DNA of 64,000 nucleotides from Octopus vulgaris (taxonomy: Eukaryota). Location: the NCBI GenBank assembly GCA_951406725.2, contig OX597831.1, positions 58,714,001-58,778,000 on the forward strand. The letters run 5' to 3'. The notes beneath the pieces were generated by a model. It had not been told where the DNA came from, made no database searches, and saw only the letters and a list, made by a program, of their open reading frames with translations. Position numbers and translations under genes: made by a program. Positions within the stretch are counted from its first letter, which is position 1. Each line of letters starts with the position of its first letter. Positions 3,586 through 54,569 of this stretch are shown piece after piece.

Positions 3586-3748
3586 AGGCGCAGGAGTGGC
3601 TATGTGGTAAGTAGCTTGCTAACCAGCCACATGGTTCCGGGTTCAGTACCACTGCGTGGCATCTTGGGCAAGTGTCTTCTACTATAGCCTCGGGCCGACC
3701 AAAGCCTTGTGAGTAGATTTGGTAGACGGAAACTGAAAGAGGCCTGCC

Positions 3749-3750
<2 letters not shown>
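3586..3750 (+). mobile_element. SINE family A, 5' half (3' half at 4689-4881)
   Basis: Head matches 5756-5915 and ends in (TA)n. Confidence 0.88.
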
Positions 3751-3814
<64 letters not shown>

Positions 3815-3817
<3 letters not shown>

Positions 3818-4326
3818 GGTATGTAGAAAAATACAACATGGACAAGAACGTATAACTCTTAGAAGACGATACAATAAACACGGACAGGACATTCGAAACC
3901 CTCAGTCTTCAGTCAAGAACCGGATCATCGTAGTAATTTCGGCTGATTAATCTTGAGATTACTAGATCACAGCCAGCCCTCCAAGAAAAACTAAGCAACG
4001 AGCATTAGAAAAACTAAGCTGGAAGCGTAGATTTCCTGGAAGAAGGATCGAATGCATACGAACACCAGGACAGCAAAAGGGACAGATATAAAAAACAATA
4101 ATGGAATACAGAAACATGAAATACAGAAGCATTAACGGTGAAAACAACAAGTGTCTTACGACTGATAACAAGCAAACAAATTTTTTCTCTGGCGCATTGG
4201 AAGGAGCCTTTATAGCGGCGGACGAAAAACAACGATGTTAACGTGACGATGGTCAGAAGCTGAAAGGCAGATTTCAGCCAGCAGTCACGTGACAGAGAAG
4301 AGAGAAAAGAAAGAAAGAGAAGCAAA

Positions 4327-4360
<34 letters not shown>

Positions 4361-4670
4361 GGACAAACGCAACAAAGAGAGAGAAGAGAGAGAAAGAAGG
4401 AATCAGAGAGGAGAAGGGATGGGTGTCGAAGATTGACCTGTGAGTGCAGAGCGAGACAAAGAATTAGGAAGGTAGTGGAAGATTAGACCAAAGAATCAGA
4501 GGAAAGAGAAGAGAAAAAGAGGATGAGTAGAGAGAAAAGAGAGGAGAGAGAAGAGAGAGAGAAGGGGACAGATCAAGTAAAAATGAGAGAGAGAGAGAGA
4601 CAAACAGAGAGTCGTACCAATTATTAAGAATATGTGCTCACATTAAAGTTAAGAGGGTACGGGGCGCCTG
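3815..4670 (-). mobile_element. Non-coding insert, probably PLE-derived, with GA-rich tract, inside the (TA)n of a family A SINE
   Basis: Bounded by TA runs between the two SINE halves; carries the permuted HHR at 3902-3964; similar layout to 53730-54450. Confidence 0.55.
3902..3964 (-). ncRNA. Non-circularly permuted hammerhead ribozyme candidate 1
   Basis: Minus strand: UAGUAA-UC-UCAAGA uuaa UCAG-cc-GAAA-UUACUA cgaugauccggu UCUUGA-CUGAAGA-CUGA. Stems III (6 bp), I (6 bp) and II (4 bp, two unpaired C) pair. Confidence 0.7.
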
Positions 4671-4688
4671 GAATATATATATATATAT

Positions 4689-4881
4689 GTGTGTGTGTTT
4701 GTGTGTCTGTGTTTGTCCCCCTAGCATGACAACCGATGCTGGTGTGTTTACGTCCCCGTCACTTAGCGGTTCAGCAAAAGAGACCGATAGAATAAGTCCC
4801 AGGGTCGATTTGCTCGACTAAAGGCGGTGCTCCTGCATGGCCGCAGTCAATTGACTGAAACAAGTAAAAGAGTAAAAGAGT
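4689..4881 (+). mobile_element. SINE family A, 3' half
   Basis: Matches 5940-6157, including the GACTGAAACAAGTAAAAGAGTAAAAG tail. Confidence 0.88.
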
Positions 4882-18727: not shown

Positions 18728-19010
18728 TTTTCGGTTTGAACGGCAGTTTGTTCTAGCGGTGTCATATGAAATTGTCACCCATAATTATGACCCTACTATC
18801 GATCTATTGCATTTCAATCTGTTTTAGGGTTCGGGTTAGTTAGGGTTAGGGTTAGGGGTGGGGGAAGGGTATTTTTTTCTTGAGAAATGTAAATAAACCC
18901 AATCTGTTTCTTATACGAGGGACACATTCATATGGCACAGAATGTTTTCACCTCAAGACGTCATTGATTGGTTGAAATTGCAGAAATTGAAGAAAGAAAA
19001 CAACAAATAT
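18728..19010 (+). mobile_element. TTAGGG-containing TIR element, truncated copy
   Basis: Starts TTTTCGGTTTGAACGGCAG; internal (TTAGGG)n; matches 34040-34420. Confidence 0.8.
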
Positions 19011-20889: not shown

Positions 20890-21455
20890 AGAAATAAGCT
20901 CCGGGCTGAAAGAAATAAGCTCCGGGCTGAATAACAACATGGATGTTCCCTGGGAGCCTCTCTCCAAAAAACGAATTTAATCCAACAACATCGTTACAAT
21001 GGAAGAAAGGTTCCACAAAATATCTTTTCCAAATTTTCTTTTAAGGCAAAGTAACTAAAAAGTCCGAACTATTATTGCCATATATAGTATGGTTTTCTTT
21101 CTTTTATGCACAATATTTCCATGTGACATGCATAAGAAATAGAAGCGAACATCAGAGCTCTTGAAAGACAGTAAGTACATAAATTGATTAATTAATTAAT
21201 TAATTAAATAAGTATACATGCAACTGTTTATGCATACACGTACACATTTTAATTATAAAGTATACATGCAACTGTTTGTGCATACATGTACACATTTTAA
21301 TTATAAAGCATAAATAATGCATACACGCGCTCACACGTACACACAGAAAGAAAAACCACGTTACGCGGACGAAAACAAAACAAAAAGCGATTTTTCACGA
21401 ACAAACGCAAAAAAGAGAAAATTGGTCACTGAATTTAGAAAGTCACTACACAGTT

Positions 21456-24308
21456 ATGCCCGGAAACATGACTACCAAAAGAAATAGAGGCGAATTTCGA
21501 TCTGTAAGTCTTATGCGAGTTCGATATGAACAATATATTAATTCGGAGAATTCAGAAGCGGTGTTTTGTCAAAAAATTGACCCTGTCACCGTCACAGAAG
21601 CGGCGTCTTGTCAAAAAGTTGACTCTGAAAAAATTGACCCCTCTGATGTCGCCGTCAATCATTTAATGAAAACAAGCCAAAAATCATGCCGGATCGGTCA
21701 TCGCCCGGGACAACAAGGACCGCGTTACCCAGTAGGGAACCAGACTGGGGTCGAAAAGTTTGCTGCTGGAACAAACTCTCAAAAAGACGATCTACCAGGT
21801 GACCAGAACCAGAATACTTCTAACTCTGGACTTGTAGTGACACCACCAAAAACACCACCTAAAGCAAAACGTATAAAATGGACCAGAGAGGACTATAGAG
21901 ATGTGTTGAAAGCTTTTTATACAGCCCAACTAAACCCAAACAATAACCTCAGTGTACAAACATACATCTCATGGAGAAATTCAGTAGGCAATGACGTACG
22001 TAGATATATAGACGCAAATAAATTAAGTAATGTACGCAGAGATATAATTAAAAACAAAAGACTAACTGACGCTGAAATTGACAAAATTAGGACACTAATA
22101 GCTCATGGTAGACCAAAAGAAAACAGCAACAATGTAGACGAAATAGGTAATAGTAGCACAGAAGCCAGTGTACAAGCGGCAAATCAACTTCCCAATGGGG
22201 AAGTTAAACAAAGAATAGCGAAGACGAGAGATTTGAAAAAAGAGGAGAACGTAGACCTTCCTCAAGAAAACCAAAATAGATATGACATAGAATTTGAGGT
22301 GAATAATAGAGAAAAGATTATGGAAGCAAAAGTGGACATTATGAGAGAACTCGGCAAGATTGAGCTCACTGACATGGTTAATAGAGAACCACTACCAAAG
22401 TTTTCAAATGGCACAAGAAATAACAACACAATAATGACATATAACGTTGCCCTAGGACAGATCTTAAGAAATAAGGGGAATGATTTGACAACCTTAAATA
22501 ATCTCATTTATTCCACTGCTAAAGTAGTAACTACCCAACTAGGTATTAAGATGACAAAGAAAAAGGCCAGGCATGTCAATGAACCTCCTAAGTGGAAAGT
22601 AGCGATACAAAAAGAGATTGAATCTCTGCGGGCGGATGTTTCAGTTCTCGATGAGCTTGCTAGAGGAGTGAATATTAAGCCGAGAAAAGCTAGAAAAATC
22701 AAGCAAAAATATAAAATCAAAGATCTCATAAACCTCCCTGCAACTAAGGAACTGTTGAAACAACGGATACAGTTGAAAGCTCAACGGCTTAGAAGGTATG
22801 ACAAAAGAAACAAATTTTATCGACAAAATAAATTTTTTAAGACAGATGCAAAGAAATTTTATAGGGAAATTGGCAAAAATAAAATACACATAGAAGATCC
22901 ACCTAAGATTGAGGAAGTGGAGGAGTTCTGGAAGAAGGTATGGAGCAACGAAAAAGAGTTTAATGCTGAGGCTGACTGGATAGAACGTGAGAAAGAGAGA
23001 CTGGATGAACTTGAAGAACAGAAATGGGAAGCAATAGGGATAGAGGAGCTAAGGTGTGTCCTTAGGAAGGCTCATAAATGGAAAACCCCAGGACTGGATC
23101 GGATCCCTAACTTCTGGCTGAATTGTTTGACAGAGGTACACGAACATCTCGCTGCATCTCTGTCTGATGTCATTCAGAACCCAGAGCAAATACCTGCTTG
23201 GCTGACTGAAGGAACCACCTACCTATTACCTAAAACCGAAGACACAAAAAACCCAAAGAATTACCGGCCAATAACATGTCTCAACACCACCTACAAAATC
23301 CTCACATCCATAATAACGGAGAGAATGTACGCTTTCCTTGAACAAAATTCTATCCTTCCACAAGCTCAAAAAGGTTGTAAAAGAAACTCTTATGGGTGCA
23401 AAGACCAATTGCTCATAAACAGAATGATTGTAGAGAATTGCCGGAGCAAAAACAAAAACCTGAGTATGGCATGGATAGACTACAGGAAAGCGTATGACAG
23501 TGTCCCACATAAATGGATACTCAAGGCCCTTGAGATATACAAGATCTCCCCTGTCGTCTCAAAATTCTTAGAGAATAGCATGACCATGTGGAACACACGT
23601 CTCTTTCTAAGCCATAGTAATGGGATGAGCCAGTCCAACAGCATCAACATCAAACGAGGCATCTTTCAAGGTGACTCCCTCTCTCCATTACTTTTTTGCA
23701 TGGCACTGATCCCACTCTCAAACGAATTGGATAGTGCCAGATATGGGTACAAAGTTTTTAGCAAGTTAATAAACCACCTTTTTTATATGGACGATCTAAA
23801 GCTGTTTGCCAAGAATGACCAAGAGCTAGAAGGGCTGCTAACAACTGTTAAAGAGTTTAGCAATGATATCGGAATGGATTTTGGCCTTGATAAGTGTGCT
23901 AAAGCAACTTTTGTAAGAGGCAAGCTCAGGCAAACAGCTTCTGTTAAATTAGATATTGACACTACCATCAAGGAACTTGACCCACAAGAAAGCTACAAAT
24001 ACCTAGGAATCAACGAAGGAGATGGTATACATCATGCTACTATGAAGGAAAAAATAAGAAAGGAGTACTATAGGAGAATAAGGCTTGTACTGAAGACTGA
24101 ACTCAACTCCAAAAATTGCATTGAGGCCATTAACACCCTGGCACTTCCAGTAGTCCAGTACAGTTTTAACATCATTAACTGGAACCTTACGGAACTCCAA
24201 CGCTTGGACAGGAAGACAAGAAAGTTACTGACATCCAGGAGCATGCACCACCCTAAGGCAGATGTAGACCGCTTGTACCTACCTAGAAGCAGCGGGGGAG
24301 AGGAATGA
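21456..24308 (+). CDS. R4/Dong polyprotein, N-terminal part with reverse transcriptase
   Basis: KTPGLDRI, NYRPITCL, WIDYRKAYDSVPH, GIFQGDSLSPLLF, HLFYMDDLKLF, YKYLG; ends LYLPRSSGG at the frameshift. Confidence 0.93.
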   Translation: MPGNMTTKRNRGEFRSVSLMRVRYEQYINSENSEAVFCQKIDPVTVTEAASCQKVDSEKIDPSDVAVNHLMKTSQKSCRIGHRPGQQGPRYPVGNQTGVEKFAAGTNSQKDDLPGDQNQNTSNSGLVVTPPKTPPKAKRIKWTREDYRDVLKAFYTAQLNPNNNLSVQTYISWRNSVGNDVRRYIDANKLSNVRRDIIKNKRLTDAEIDKIRTLIAHGRPKENSNNVDEIGNSSTEASVQAANQLPNGEVKQRIAKTRDLKKEENVDLPQENQNRYDIEFEVNNREKIMEAKVDIMRELGKIELTDMVNREPLPKFSNGTRNNNTIMTYNVALGQILRNKGNDLTTLNNLIYSTAKVVTTQLGIKMTKKKARHVNEPPKWKVAIQKEIESLRADVSVLDELARGVNIKPRKARKIKQKYKIKDLINLPATKELLKQRIQLKAQRLRRYDKRNKFYRQNKFFKTDAKKFYREIGKNKIHIEDPPKIEEVEEFWKKVWSNEKEFNAEADWIEREKERLDELEEQKWEAIGIEELRCVLRKAHKWKTPGLDRIPNFWLNCLTEVHEHLAASLSDVIQNPEQIPAWLTEGTTYLLPKTEDTKNPKNYRPITCLNTTYKILTSIITERMYAFLEQNSILPQAQKGCKRNSYGCKDQLLINRMIVENCRSKNKNLSMAWIDYRKAYDSVPHKWILKALEIYKISPVVSKFLENSMTMWNTRLFLSHSNGMSQSNSINIKRGIFQGDSLSPLLFCMALIPLSNELDSARYGYKVFSKLINHLFYMDDLKLFAKNDQELEGLLTTVKEFSNDIGMDFGLDKCAKATFVRGKLRQTASVKLDIDTTIKELDPQESYKYLGINEGDGIHHATMKEKIRKEYYRRIRLVLKTELNSKNCIEAINTLALPVVQYSFNIINWNLTELQRLDRKTRKLLTSRSMHHPKADVDRLYLPRSSGGEE

Positions 24309-25336
24309 TGCAATTGGAGCTGTGCTATAAGACCTCTACTGTAGGAATGAACAGGTACCTATCTAGTACAAACGACTGGATGCTGCGACTTGTGTGTGAA
24401 CACGAAAGCAGCAAAAAGCTGCATTCTATTGTCAAGGAAGCTTATAAGTTCGAAAGGGAACTAGGCATTAACCTTGAATCAGGTGAAGAGCCAGAAACCA
24501 CTGCTACCAAGCAAGCAAAGCGAATCAGGCAGACTGCAAAAAAGAATGGGCAGAATCAAATTGAGAGGCGGTGGAGCCAGAAGCCCCTGCATGGACAATA
24601 CATTCTCCGAAGCCAAAATGCTGATGTAGACCAAGCAACAACCCATCAGTGGCTGAAGAGTTCTGGATTGAAAGCAGAGACTGAAGGCTTCATAATGGCA
24701 GCACAAGATCAAAGCTTGTTTACCAGAAATTACCAGGCTAACGTTCTCCGAAACGGTACTGACCCTAAATGCAGATTCTGTGACACATTTGACGAAACAA
24801 TAGACCATCTCGTTTCGGGATGTCCTGTGCTGACACCAAACGAATACAAAAATCGCCACGATAGGGTAGGACAGTATATACATTGGAAGATATGTAAACA
24901 CTACAAATCCGACACTCCTGCTAACTGGTATGAACACCATCCTCAGCCAGTTGTTGAAGGTAAAGATGTCACCATCCTCTGGGATTTTCCAGTCAACACT
25001 GACAGAACGATCAAGGCTAATCGACCAGACATAATTGTTAAAGACAGGGAAGAAAATACCTGCAGACTAATAGAAGTAAGCGTCCCCACTGATAAAAATG
25101 TATCTGTCAAGGAATTTGACAAACTTAGTAAATATAAGGACCTGGAAATCAAAATACAGAGGATGTGGAATCTTAAAACAAAAACTGTTCCTGTTATTGT
25201 AGGTGCCCTAGGTATGATAAAAAAGGGATGTCAGAAACACCTAGACAATATCCCTGGAAAACCATGTCTCAAGGAAATCCAAAAGATTGTGCTAACAAGT
25301 ACTGCCCACATCCTTAGAAAAACCCTATCAATGTAA
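24305..25336 (+). CDS. R4/Dong polyprotein, C-terminal part: CCHC finger and restriction-like endonuclease (frameshifted continuation)
   Basis: CRFCDTFDETIDHLVSGC, RHD, RPDII...LIEVSVP, KLSKY motifs. Confidence 0.9.
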   Translation: MMQLELCYKTSTVGMNRYLSSTNDWMLRLVCEHESSKKLHSIVKEAYKFERELGINLESGEEPETTATKQAKRIRQTAKKNGQNQIERRWSQKPLHGQYILRSQNADVDQATTHQWLKSSGLKAETEGFIMAAQDQSLFTRNYQANVLRNGTDPKCRFCDTFDETIDHLVSGCPVLTPNEYKNRHDRVGQYIHWKICKHYKSDTPANWYEHHPQPVVEGKDVTILWDFPVNTDRTIKANRPDIIVKDREENTCRLIEVSVPTDKNVSVKEFDKLSKYKDLEIKIQRMWNLKTKTVPVIVGALGMIKKGCQKHLDNIPGKPCLKEIQKIVLTSTAHILRKTLSM

Positions 25337-33109: not shown

Positions 33110-33908
33110 TTTTCCTTTTGAACGGCACTTTGTAACATAATTTCTAGGTAACTAAAAAGTTTTAAACTACGTATACTGGTAGAATGTTTATAAAACATCA
33201 TTTTCTCTTGGCTTTATTGAGAAAATTCTATCGTTTGTAAGATATTTCGCCTGAAATTTCGAGCATTTCGGCAATTTTAATCACTCAATTACCTCCATTT
33301 AGGTAAATAACATTCTGTGCATAATGAATACGTCCCTCCTTTAAGAAACAGATTGGGTTTATTTACATTTGTGAAGAAAAAAAGATACCCTTCCCCAACC
33401 CCTAACCCTAAACCTAACCCTAACCCTAACCCTAACTCTAACCCTAAATCTAAAATAGATTGAACTAGAAAAAAATCCCATTTTCCGTAGCGGTGTCGTA
33501 TGAAATGTCACCCATAATTATAACCCTAGTATCGATCTATTGCATTTCAATCTATTTTAGATTTAGGGTTAGAGTTAGGGTTAGGTAGGGTTAGTTAGTG
33601 TTAGTTAGGGTTAGGGATGGAGGAATGGTATCTTTTTTTCTTCTCAAATGTAAATTAACCCAATCTGTTTCTTAAACGAGGGACATATTCATACAGCAAG
33701 GAATGATGTTTACGTTAATGTAGGTAATCGATTGGTTAAAATTGCCGAAATGCTCGAAATTTCAGACGAACTATCTTACAAACTATAGAATTTTCTCAAT
33801 AAAGCCAAGAGAAAATGATGTTTTATAAACACTTTCTACCAGTATACGAAGTTTAAAACATTTTAGTTACATAGAAATTATGTTACAAAGTGCCGTTCAA
33901 AAGGAAAA
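33110..33908. mobile_element. Head-to-head (palindromic) dimer of the TTAGGG-containing TIR element
   Basis: Ends TTTTCCTTTTGAACGGCAC and GTGCCGTTCAAAAGGAAAA; ~350 bp arms with (CCCTAA)n left and (TTAGGG)n right. Confidence 0.85.
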
Positions 33909-34038: not shown

Positions 34039-34425
34039 ATTTTCGGTTTGAACGGCAGGTTTTTCTAGCGGTGTCATGAAATTGTCACTCATAATTATGA
34101 TCCTACTATCGATCTATTGCATTTCAATCTGATTTAAGGTTAGGGTTAGTTAGGGTTAGGGTTAGGGTTAGGGGTGGGGGGGGGAGGGTATCTTTTTTCT
34201 TCAGAAATGTAAATAAACCCAATCTGTTTCTTAAACGAAGGACATATTCATACGGCACAGAATGTTTTCATCTGAAATAGACGTCATGATTGGTTGAAAT
34301 TGCAGAAATTGGAGAAAAAAAACAAAACAAATATCTTACAAACTATAGATCTTTCTCAATAAAGCCAAGAGAAAAAGATGTTTTATAATCACATTCTACC
34401 AGTATACGAAGTTTTAAAGTGTTTA
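34039..34425 (+). mobile_element. TTAGGG-containing TIR element monomer, 3' end truncated
   Basis: Same start and body as 18728 and the right arm of 33110-33908. Confidence 0.82.
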
Positions 34426-52299: not shown

Positions 52300-53700
52300 C
52301 AGTGGGGGAAAATAAATATTCGTACATGTCAAAATTCTTTATTTATCTAATTTCTAATGAACATAATGGGGATATATCAATACTATGTTTGCATACACAT
52401 GCATAAAATAAGAATATGCAAAAGAAACTAATAAATTATAGTTACTAAGGAATTTATATACAACTAGCAGTATCGCCCGGCGTTGCTCAGGTTTGTAAGG
52501 GAAATAACTATAAAGCATTTTTAGAGAGTTATAGCCAAAAAATAGAAAAAAAATGATGGTAAATTTTTTTGAGAGTTAAAACAGGTGGAGTTGCGTCCCC
52601 TAGACGGTCTGTGGTTTGGGTTTCTCATTCTCGACCCCATGTCGAATTTATCGATTTTTTTCAGAACTGGGGGAACTTTTCAAAATTTTCGCTGCGTTAG
52701 TTTTGAATTATGACATTGGGCTATGTGTGTGTCAAGTTTCATCAGAATCGGTTGAAAGCCGTGGTCAGAGTGAGGGTACGAGAAAACAGAAACACGCACA
52801 GACAAACTGCCGTTTATATAGAGAGAGATAGCAGTATCGCCCGGCGTTGCTCAGGTTTGTAAGGGAAATAACTATAAAGCATTTTTAGAGAGTTATAGCC
52901 AAAAAATAGCAAAAAATGGAAAAAAAATGATGGTAAATTTTTTTGAGAGTTAAAACAGGTGGAGTTGCGTCCCCTAGACGGTCTGTGGTTTGGGTTTCTC
53001 ATTCTCGACCCCATGTCGAATTTATCGATTTTTTTTCAGAACTGGGGGAACTTTTCAAAATTTTCGCTGCGTTAGTTTTGAATTATGACATTGGGCTATG
53101 TGTGTGTCAAGTTTCATCAGAATCGGTTGAAAGCCGTGGTCAGAGTGAGGGTACGAGAAAACAGACACACAGAAACATGCACAGACAAACTGCCGTTTAT
53201 ATAGAGAGAGATTATAAATATTTAGGGGTGAAAAAAGTATTCGTACAGAACATAAACAACTGGTAATTCTGACTTAATACTTCATAGCATAACCATTATT
53301 CAGTTCCACTTCAACCAATCTCTTCTTGTAGTTCTTAATCAATGACTCACATGTTTCTTTAGGAATTTTTTCCCATTCTTCTTGACAAATTTTCTTCAAA
53401 TCTGGAATGCACGTTGTGGCTCTTGAATGAATTTTAATTTTCAAATTACGCCAGAAATTTTCGACGTGGTTCAAGTCAGGTGACTGGCTTGGCCAATCTA
53501 ATAATTTTATATTGTGATCGACAATCCATTTTTGGTAGACGTCGCCGTGTGCTTAGGTTCGTTATCCTGTTGCAAAACCCACCTTCACAAAGCTGGAGCT
53601 TTTCTATAGAGTTCCGTAAATTATTGTGCAAAATATTTTGGTACATCTCTGCATTCATTCTACCATTTGCCGAGAAACACCCCAACACCATAATGTTCCA
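52300..53700 (-). mobile_element. Tc1 (DD34E-type) transposon remnant, 3' part, with IR-DR-like end
   Basis: TA|CAGTGGGG terminus; TATTCGTACA repeated at ~52317 and ~53238; GCFSANG, QQDNEPKH, PDLNHVENFW, EEWEKIP, GYAMKY*. Confidence 0.85.
52464..53211 (-). mobile_element. Non-autonomous Helitron, tandem dimer (52464-52828 and 52829-53211)
   Basis: Minus strand: A|TC start, subterminal hairpin CCTGAGCAACGCCGGG, CTAG|T end; the two units are almost identical. Confidence 0.82.
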
Positions 53701-53729
53701 CTTTATATATATATCTATACTACATCACT

Positions 53730-54450
53730 AAACGTAAACATGAAATACGAAGAAAATCTTAAGTATGCGAATAACGAGAGAAAGAAATGGAAAAACAAGA
53801 CACGTAACGTAAAGAGCAACTCTTCATCAGTTGTCGGCTGTCTATCTACTCCTCATTTCGAGCAATTAACGACAAAATGAGGCTTCGACAGGCAGTTGCT
53901 CCCGCGAATCAAAATTAAATTTGGGATTTGCGGAGCGTAAAATTTGGTAGCAAAAACAGGACAGTGGAGACATGCAACAAACCAAAGGAAAACAAACATG
54001 GCGTGGGGGGGGGGGGCGTTAGGCCAGACGAGTTAAGATAGCGAACGCTGGAGGAATGTTGTCTTTGACAAGAGAAAAGATACAAGAGGAGGCAGATAAG
54101 AATGCGTCTGGTCTGTAAGTCAGAGTGAAAGAAAAGAAAGACGATCACGTGAAGAAAAGAAAGATGGACGATGGTCATATGTGAGCAATAAGAGAGATAG
54201 TAAAAGAGAATGAAGGAGAGAGAGACAGCCAGATAGGAAACGGTGAAGGGGAGAAAAAAGAATTAGAGAAAGGAAGAGAGAGGAAACGAAGGGGTGAGAG
54301 AAGAAAACGGTACAGTCGTATGAGGAGTAGATGGACAGCTGACAACTGATGAAGGGTTGTTCTTTATGTTACTTGTCTTATTTTCCATTTGGTTCTCTCA
54401 TTGTTCGTATAACAAATTTTTGTCTTCGTATTTCATGTTTACGTTTTGTG
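53730..54450. mobile_element. Fold-back element, probably PLE-derived, with GA-rich core
   Basis: 53730-53856 is inverted at 54320-54446; flanked by TA-rich repeats. Confidence 0.7.
53819..53882 (-). ncRNA. Non-circularly permuted hammerhead ribozyme candidate 2
   Basis: Minus strand: CCUCA-UU-UUGUCG uuaauu GCUC-GAAA-UGAGG aguagauagacagc CGACAA-CUGAUGA-A-GAGU. Stems III (5 bp), I (6 bp) and II (4 bp) pair. Confidence 0.78.
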
Positions 54451-54569
54451 ATGTCCTGTACCCATATATGCATTTATATACATATTTATGTATGTACATA
54501 TGTCTATGTGTATATGCACATATATATATAATTTTTATTATATTATGTATATATATATATACATATATA

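What the first reader, a model, noticed from the sequence alone, without database searches (positions are those of the whole stretch)
3902..3964. Second, sequence-unrelated hammerhead with the same CBA order (copy 1)
Seen: minus strand UAGUAA-UC-UCAAGA / UUAA / UCAG-CC-GAAA-UUACUA / 12 nt / UCUUGA-CUGAAGA-CUGA. The stem sequences differ from copy 2, yet order, stem lengths, linker lengths and the UUAA in the short linker are preserved. That amounts to natural covariation between two families in one window. Stem II is imperfect (two unpaired C before GAAA; GGUU/AGCC is an alternative pairing), so this copy may be decayed or a variant. Both motifs sit in TA-embedded non-coding inserts, downstream on the minus strand of a long CU-rich tract.
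Basis: partly seen in the sequence, partly recalled or inferred. Interest (0 to 1): 0.85.

Follow-up and report, generated by a model that had tools for sequence, protein, structure and literature searches.

The report
Rewired hammerhead ribozyme in octopus retroelements
Thousands of copies of a short jumping element in this likely octopus genome carry all the parts of a hammerhead self-cutting RNA in a wiring not found in the papers searched, and many copies stop just at its predicted cut site, which suggests that the RNA likely cuts itself in the animal.

Summary
Cleavage block, GAAA block and CUGAAGA lie in the scrambled order on the minus strand (1 hit against 1 in 60 shuffles). Across nine families the strand before GAAA pairs with a strand UPSTREAM of the cleavage block (1 of 362,880 permutations), not with the strand after CUGANGA (chance level). 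So the 73-nt domain (3906-3978) is a hammerhead whose chain opens between A9 and G10.1, with a helix joining stems I and II, usually via a kink-turn-like loop. This is a further permutation of the SGC/CSG forms of Eckert 2023, which were not found in any named eukaryote. It sits near the fixed 3' end of a young, non-coding 866-nt element inserted in (TA)n in partial tandems, like Penelope-type pseudo-LTRs; 8,601 pattern matches against 85 controls. 5' ends of copies pile up 0-25 nt after the predicted cut (30 of 91) and drop before it (6 of 61). Published octopus Naiad consensus ends show the same wiring, and four other Naiad consensus ends, from the nematode block of the file, the CSG form (by eye). 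Cleavage is untested.

The parts
3906..3978 (-). Whole predicted ribozyme domain (73 nt): stem II 5' strand, interaction helix, cleavage block, GAAA block, stem I partner, CUGAAGA
3973..3978 (-).
   Evidence: covaries with 3941-3946 across families: 1 of 362,880; 3 of 6 pairs compensatory
3965..3972 (-). 5' strand of the helix that joins the distal ends of stems I and II (Eckert's interaction helix)
   Evidence: 9 of 362,880 permutations; 5 of 8 pairs compensatory
3957..3964 (-). Stem III 3' strand with U16.1 (3958) and C17 (3957); predicted cut between 3957 and 3956 after AUC
   Evidence: sequence; 5'-end pile-up
3951..3956 (-). Stem I 5' strand
   Evidence: (2 of 362,880)
3947..3950 (-). Short linker UUAA between stems I and II (1-5 nt in other families)
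3931..3946 (-). GAAA block: stem II 3' strand 3946-3941 (C11.1 at 3941), GAAA 3940-3937, stem III 5' strand 3937-3931
   Evidence: CGAAA invariant in alignments A1 and A2 (the rows were found with patterns that require it)
3920..3930 (-). 4-nt bulge (3930-3927; a kink-turn-like loop in most sister subfamilies) and 3' strand of the interaction helix (3926-3920)
   Evidence: GA/GA in 27 of 38 full-domain copies, UA/GA (this subfamily's form) in 9
3906..3918 (-). Stem I 3' strand (3918-3913) and CUGAAGA core (3912-3906); the chain leaves the domain after A9
   Evidence: sequence
3902..3905 (-).
3815..4678 (-). One full monomer of the non-coding element (unit 866 nt), CU-rich 5' half (about 4600-4300), fixed 3' end at 3815 followed by (TA)n
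3750..3814 (.). (TA)n target tract; it lies inside a SINE-like repeat (about 3590-3749 and 4679-4880) that the element interrupts
   Evidence: the uninterrupted repeat is seen in L183; the label SINE is recalled
53824..53901 (-). Family 2 copy of the same four-block fold (stem II 5' strand 53901-53896)
53716..54454 (.). Family 2 element (minus, about 53716-54330) with an inverted partial copy of its 3' end (plus, 54320-54454)

Best explanation
The stretch 3906-3978 is a conserved hammerhead fold, predicted to self-cleave, in a short non-coding element that is likely a non-autonomous Penelope-like retroelement, and its chain enters at stem II and leaves after A9, so that the CUGANGA block is split from stem II. 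[quoted passage not shown] Inferred fold: stem III is a hairpin whose loop carries the cut site, one strand of stem I, UUAA, one strand of stem II and GAA; the fourth helix continues stem III through a kink (a kink-turn-like loop in most subfamilies, a 4-nt bulge in this one) and brings the partner strands and CUGAAGA back onto that loop. Inferred life cycle: read-through transcripts of partial tandems are cut after AUC at 3957; unit-length RNA is re-ligated to a circle or stays uncut in part; the reverse transcriptase and GIY-YIG nuclease of an autonomous Penelope-like element nick (TA)n, prime at the AUAUAU next to the fixed 3' end and copy the RNA; copying stops at the cut end (short stubs) or runs on round the template (partial tandems).
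For: Upstream stem II: 14 of 18 representatives score 5 or more of 6, against 8% of 274 cross-family pairings; 1 of 362,880 permutations of 9 families; stems I and III 2 and 6 of 362,880. Interaction helix 9 of 362,880. On alignment A2 (19 rows) 15 of 25 pairs are compensatory, 91.6% of cells pair, slid controls reach at most 44.7%. The stem opens with G10.1-C11.1 in 18 of 19 rows. 8,601 pattern matches against 85 for the reversed pattern; 1,891 against 60 for a second pattern. 5' ends: 30 of 91 copies end 0 to +25 from the predicted cut, 6 of 61 in -26 to -1 (p 9e-4), 6 of 97 in +26 to +51 (p 2e-6). Fixed 3' end, 5' truncation, head-to-tail partial tandems, inverted 3' copies and (TA)n targets match Penelope-like elements as described in PMC8557442. 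Units within a locus differ by 0.25%, between loci by 1.06%. Type-SGC and CSG forms with the same four helices cleave in vitro, and PLE hammerheads tolerate an extra nucleotide between A9 and G10.1 (PMC10085705, PMC4209133).
Against: No cleavage assay; a full break between A9 and G10.1 has no tested precedent that I found, and Eckert 2023 assumed the block cannot be interrupted. The nested minimum-energy fold of this copy pairs the stem II strand with the stem I partner region in a rod, so the active fold has a competitor (the program cannot model pseudoknots). 54 of 100 copies extend more than 45 nt beyond the cut site, so many templates were uncut or re-ligated. This subfamily lacks the GA/GA loop. 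No autonomous element with this ribozyme and an open reading frame was found in the genome: 0 of 30 GIY-YIG loci had it downstream, the two young Neptune-like families do not carry it in their own 3' ends, and 0 of 8 Naiad-like 3' remnants had a reading frame beside them. Families are related and the representatives were chosen as intact-looking, so the permutation counts are not probabilities.
Confidence: 0.72

Rival explanations
1. Same fold, but it works only as a dimer: each RNA keeps its own stem III and interaction helix as one long hairpin, and its loop docks on the flanking strands of a second copy, so cutting happens only in tandem transcripts.
For: Linkers at the distal junction are very short (0, 1 and 4 nt), which strains a monomer; metazoan PLE hammerheads are proposed to act as dimers (PMC4209133); tandems are common; this subfamily lacks the kink-turn-like GA/GA.
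Against: Stem III here is long and not palindromic; GA/GA is kept in 27 of 38 copies and in the Naiad form; Eckert 2023 saw direct joins of the same two helices in some SGC ribozymes. Covariation cannot tell cis from trans.
Confidence: 0.25
2. Plain type-SGC hammerhead, with stem II made from the strand after CUGANGA.
For: This copy can form 4 Watson-Crick pairs there; family 1 keeps a second possible 4-bp partner at +5 and family 2 one at +1, so a switch between partners is possible in these families.
Against: Downstream partner at chance level across 9 families (250,472 of 362,880); 0 of 4 pairs compensatory; absent in family 3; needs a C-G first pair and a 2-nt bulge, or a 5-nt insertion.
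Confidence: 0.07
3. The fold is conserved but does not cut (for example a binding site for the element's enzyme or a kink-turn protein), and the 5'-end pile-up comes from a transcription start, from reverse-transcriptase stalling or from microhomology with (TA)n.
For: PLE pseudo-LTRs hold transcription starts (PMC8557442); several junctions lie in the AT-rich linker; min-HHRs of PLEs are weak in vitro (PMC4209133) and 8 of 9 retrozyme dimers did not cleave in a 2026 preprint (10.64898/2026.07.22.740005).
Against: The pile-up has its edge at the predicted nucleotide (ends at 0, 0, 2, 2, 2, 2, 3; three scored at -3 are at 0 by eye; none other until -12) and includes GC-rich positions; only 6 of 97 ends fall where the enzyme first meets the helices; the NUH triplet holds in 17 of 18 representatives.
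Confidence: 0.15

Closest known systems
Type-SGC and type-CSG non-circularly permuted hammerhead ribozymes (Eckert et al. 2023, PMC10085705)
   Same: Same core letters, three mutually crossing stems, a short linker from stem I to stem II, and a helix joining the distal ends of stems I and II.
   Different: There the CUGANGA block is whole and the chain opens between helices; here it opens between A9 and G10.1, and stem III and the interaction helix are joined at both strands, mostly by a kink-turn-like loop. SGC forms were only in metatranscriptomes, CSG in metagenomes, none in a named eukaryote; here thousands of copies lie in an animal genome.
Hammerheads in pseudo-LTRs of Penelope-like elements (Cervera and de la Pena 2014, PMC4209133)
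   Same: Position near the 3' end of a partial-tandem element, G10.1-C11.1, a tolerant A9/10.1 junction, proposed cleavage, circularisation and more-than-unit reverse transcription.
   Different: Those are type I with a minimal palindromic stem III; this one has a 5-7 bp stem III and a pseudoknotted order.
Naiad Penelope-like elements (Craig et al. 2021, PMC8557442)
   Same: (TA)n targets, tandem and inverted structure; the printed Naiad_Ovul and Naiad_Obim 3' ends show this four-block fold by eye, and the same 3' end is in this genome (L197, L204, L207).
   Different: Naiads were reported to lack canonical hammerheads (only 'core' or 'half core' flags); cephalopod Naiads are old, while family 1 is young and non-coding, so its present helper is not identified.
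Non-LTR retrozymes of animals (PMC7229834, search listing only; 10.64898/2026.07.22.740005)
   Same: Non-coding tandem units with one hammerhead each, argued to derive from PLE pseudo-LTRs.
   Different: Defined with a type I hammerhead; circular RNA is shown for them and not for this element.

Membership tests
Hammerhead ribozyme | Core letters CUGANGA, GAAA, NUH | tested here: met
   (NUH in 17 of 18 representatives)
Hammerhead ribozyme | Stems I, II, III abutting the core, with covariation | tested here: met
Hammerhead ribozyme | Site-specific self-cleavage after H17 | not testable with these tools
   only indirect support: 5'-end pile-up
Hammerhead types I, II, III (Rfam models) | Nested three-way junction in a circular block order | tested here: not met
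   three crossing stems; no Rfam hammerhead match at E up to 10
Type-SGC hammerhead (Eckert 2023) | Cleavage block, GAAA block, CUGANGA in that order | tested here: met
Type-SGC hammerhead (Eckert 2023) | Stem II strand directly after CUGANGA (block C uninterrupted) | tested here: not met
Type-SGC hammerhead (Eckert 2023) | Helix joining distal ends of stems I and II | tested here: met
Kink-turn (consensus recalled) | 3-nt bulge followed by tandem G-A/A-G between two helices | tested here: inconclusive
   27 of 38 family-1 copies fit; this copy's subfamily (9 of 38) has UA in place of GA; no structure test
Non-autonomous Penelope-like element | Fixed 3' end, 5' truncation, partial tandems and inverted copies, microsatellite target, no coding capacity | tested here: met
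Non-autonomous Penelope-like element | Sequence tie to an autonomous element with RT and GIY-YIG | tested here: inconclusive
   same ribozyme form as published Naiad ends, but no direct partner of family 1 found
Non-LTR retrozyme | Type I hammerhead in each tandem unit | tested here: not met
   one hammerhead per unit, but not type I
Non-LTR retrozyme | Unit-length circular RNA | not testable with these tools
   only assembled contigs were offered

The most novel reading that the evidence does not exclude
A seventh natural hammerhead wiring: an active ribozyme whose chain opens inside the catalytic core (A9/G10.1) and folds back through a kink-turn, amplified to thousands of copies in an animal genome with a genomic footprint of cleavage; and, more widely, the 'missing' hammerheads of many Naiad retroelements are non-circularly permuted forms (four-block in octopus, CSG in nematodes), which gives this rare RNA class its first known biological role.
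Probability: 0.65. Interest if true: 0.92.

Novelty: new variant of a known kind. Interest (0 to 1): 0.86.

Why it matters
Non-circular permutations of natural RNA were known from one paper and from sequences of unknown hosts, with six orders taken to be all that is possible. This one breaks a block held to be indivisible, lies in an animal genome in thousands of copies across at least nine families with natural covariation, and may be gated by a kink-turn and its binding proteins. It offers an answer to why Naiad elements seemed to lack ribozymes, and the sharp edge of 5' truncations gives a way to test the long-proposed role of Penelope-type hammerheads (cut, circularise, reverse-transcribe) from genome data. 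A 73-nt transcript makes the decisive test cheap.

Tried and rejected
A closing helix between the 5' and 3' flanks (a fourth arm at A9/G10.1): looked plausible by eye, not supported by covariation (276,244 of 362,880 permutations as low). Decay of this copy: rejected; it differs from the commonest family sequence at one site of the domain (3971, still a G-U pair). Rfam: whole-window scan showed only the best 150 of 248 rows, none a ribozyme; local scan no hammerhead; 3' region of the 781-aa element no ribozyme family. Autonomous partner: not found; a recalled Pfam accession was not in the library. Sequencing runs: no RNA holder listed; the 4 runs laid were contigs with RNA only guessed and cannot show ends. 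Collection scans of viral, metagenome and prokaryote contigs were not run, because a 15-letter pattern would be swamped by chance. No structure or complex prediction was run. Literature: no paper for 'type-SGC' beyond Eckert 2023, none joining non-circular hammerheads to Penelope elements in their main text, one unrelated paper for kink-turn, none for the phrase 'between A9 and G10.1'; the library lacks most subscription papers, and the supplements of Eckert 2023 and of the 2026 preprint were not seen.

Full report
OBSERVATION. On the minus strand the window reads: stem III strand and AUC (3964-3957), a 6-nt stem I strand, UUAA, six letters, GAAA, the stem III partner, 12 nt, the stem I partner and CUGAAGA. 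A descriptor that allows every block order found this one site in 64 kb, against 1 match of that order in 60 shuffles. A looser scan added the second site at 53819-53882. Rfam has no hammerhead match here. In the naming of Eckert et al. 2023 (PMC10085705; parts 1-5 of 8 of the text read, passages; supplements not seen) the order is S-G-C, a non-circular permutation that cleaves in vitro, was found only in metatranscriptomes, and has a helix joining the far ends of stems I and II.

THE ELEMENT. The genome G000 has 2.8 Gb in 227 contigs; from this and from the near identity, by eye, of L197 to the printed Naiad_Ovul 3' end I infer an octopus. The motif lies about 90 nt from the 3' end of an 866-nt non-coding unit (3815-4678). 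The 40 best of 1,804 candidates are 96-100% identical. In the 30 loci fetched the 3' end is fixed (28 of 30 at the same base, 2 five bases short) and followed by (TA)n, 5' ends vary, and units join head to tail at one junction that begins with ACAUAUAU. Family 2 is older (40 best of 4,063 candidates at 80-86%, apart from itself) and some copies carry an inverted 3' piece. These are the marks of Penelope-like pseudo-LTRs as described in Craig et al. 2021 (PMC8557442; passages). Units within a locus differ at 11 of 4,388 sites, between loci at 1,599 of 151,225 (16 pairs, 26 loci after dropping 4 duplicates; one variant shared by both units of L012 is seen in no other locus). This fits copying of one template more than once, but does not tell a circle from a tandem source.

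STEM II IS UPSTREAM. The two C before GAAA are in the commonest family sequence (35 copies), so they are not decay. A pattern for linker, GAAA and CUGANGA gave 8,601 matches against 85 for the reversed control, a second one 1,891 against 60; they hold many families. I chose 18 intact-looking representatives, leaving out truncated and decayed copies. In 14 of 18 a strand 22-28 nt upstream of the cut pairs with the six letters before GAAA at a score of 5 or more of 6, against 8% of 274 cross-family pairings and 3 of 18 for the downstream window. With one representative for each of 9 families, 1 of 362,880 permutations reached the upstream score, 250,472 the downstream score, 2 the stem I score and 6 the stem III score. 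The cut position was chosen among five linker lengths to fit stems I and III, which favours those two stems a little. The stem opens with G-C in 18 of 19 rows, the conserved G10.1-C11.1.

THE FOURTH HELIX AND THE KINK. Directly after the stem II strand begins a helix whose partner ends one base before the stem I partner (9 of 362,880 permutations; one of the nine rows was cut two bases off register). It is Eckert's interaction helix. Between it and stem III, 27 of 38 full-domain family-1 copies have GA opposite a 3-nt bulge and GA, the kink-turn consensus as I recall it; 9, including this copy's subfamily, have UA, which extends stem III and leaves a 4-nt bulge. A helix between the two flanks, which would close the gap at A9/G10.1, is not supported (276,244 of 362,880). 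The result is the CSG circle with all three linkers closed (0, 4 and 1 nt) and the chain opened between A9 and G10.1. Eckert 2023 assumed that this block cannot be interrupted. Cervera and de la Pena 2014 (PMC4209133; parts 1-2 of 4 read) report a conserved extra nucleotide at just this junction in PLE hammerheads, so it is a tolerant place. Against easy folding: the nested minimum-energy structure of this copy is a rod that ties up the stem II strand.

A FOOTPRINT OF CUTTING. I took the first 100 of 8,451 matches to an anchor 59 nt downstream of the predicted cut (all on contig C1; a few are tandem twins) and mapped where each copy stops matching the family (a first method was confused by TA runs and dropped). 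9 end at +26 to +59, 30 at 0 to +25, 6 at -26 to -1, 1 at -45 to -27, and 54 further upstream. As hazards: 30 of 91 against 6 of 61 (Fisher p 9e-4) and 6 of 97 for +26 to +51 (p 2e-6). Three of the six upstream ends (scored -3) are at 0 by eye, and the other three are at -12. A pile-up whose edge is the predicted nucleotide is what reverse transcription off a cut 5' end, with some trimming, would leave. Stalling at helices would be expected further 3'. A transcription start or microhomology with (TA)n are not excluded. More than half of the copies pass the site, so uncut or re-ligated templates are also used.

NAIADS. Craig 2021 found no canonical hammerhead in Naiads but flagged 8 'half cores' with the second half 35-50 nt away on either side, among them Naiad_Ovul. 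Read by eye in the supplement, the 3' ends of Naiad_Ovul and Naiad_Obim have the same four-block order, a 6-bp upstream stem II and a kink-turn-like loop; the same end is in this genome (L197, L204, L207). Four consensus ends from the nematode part of the file (Naiad_Hpol, and those printed just before Naiad_Hpol, Naiad-3_Nbra and Naiad-1_Nbra) read as complete type-CSG hammerheads with unrelated stems. In the roughly ten other ends seen, in part or whole, I could not read such a fold. These readings were not run through a program.

THE HELPER. Not found. The genome holds young elements with RT and C-terminal GIY-YIG and a Neptune-type CxxxxCxxC linker: a 781-aa family (RVT_1 and GIY-YIG) with no CUGANGA in its 3' region (7 of 7 loci), and a family of 17,701 candidates at 98-100% protein identity (RVT_1) whose printed 3' ends hold a minimal type I hammerhead-like motif (4 of 4 printed). 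Both end in (TA)n, so either could move family 1 in trans (inference). None of 30 GIY-YIG loci had the permuted motif downstream, and 8 of 8 Naiad-like remnants had no reading frame beside them, in line with the statement that cephalopod Naiads are old. A 2026 preprint (10.64898/2026.07.22.740005; parts 1-3 of 5 read; supplements closed) argues that animal retrozymes are non-autonomous PLE derivatives, but searched only type I hammerheads.

NOVELTY AND VERDICT. It works like a type-SGC/CSG hammerhead and like a PLE pseudo-LTR ribozyme, but fails one defining feature of each (block C whole; type I). My searches (passages of PMC13725137) found no report of this wiring, of a non-circular hammerhead in an animal genome, or of one in a retroelement; most subscription journals are not held. 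Earlier notes of this scan report twister folds in other Naiads and a CSG hammerhead in another genome; they are unchecked leads. Structure about 0.9, self-cleavage about 0.75, whole mechanism 0.72. New variant of a known kind; interest 0.86.

Noticed in passing
PMC8557442 supplement, Naiad consensus 3' ends: Four consensus ends from the nematode part read by eye as complete type-CSG hammerheads (CUGANGA block in the loop of a long helix, then cut site, 2-5 nt linker, GAAA block), with unrelated stems.
   Followed up: partly
L151, L153, L155, L160 (about 650-900 nt after the GIY-YIG region): Very young Neptune-like element (17,701 candidates) ends in a minimal type I hammerhead-like motif with U at position 3 and a palindromic ACGU stem III, after a long CU-rich tract.
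   Followed up: partly
L141-L145, L147, L148: Young Neptune-like family with an intact 781-aa frame; its 1-kb 3' region has no CUGANGA and no Rfam ribozyme, but repeated units with CCAAT-like and TGACGT-like motifs.
   Followed up: partly
L160, about 670-1210 nt after the GIY-YIG region: A short relative of family 1 (about 540 nt) is inserted in the (TA)n tail of a Neptune-like copy.
   Followed up: no
L217, L219, L259: Three copies have their 5' end at -12 from the cut site, beside the GA of the kink-turn-like loop; a possible second stop point.
   Followed up: no
window 21318-25336 (+): Near-intact non-LTR retrotransposon in two overlapping frames (996 and 349 aa), with RT motifs and what looks like a restriction-enzyme-like endonuclease (label recalled).
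   Followed up: no
window 18824-18855, 33400-33616, 34134-34173: Interstitial TTAGGG / CCCTAA arrays, some in opposite orientation.
   Followed up: no
window about 53250-53700 (-): Decayed Tc1/mariner-like transposase remnant beside the family 2 element (by eye, label recalled).
   Followed up: no
window 52465-53212: Two tandem copies of a 375-nt repeat, 95% alike.
   Followed up: no
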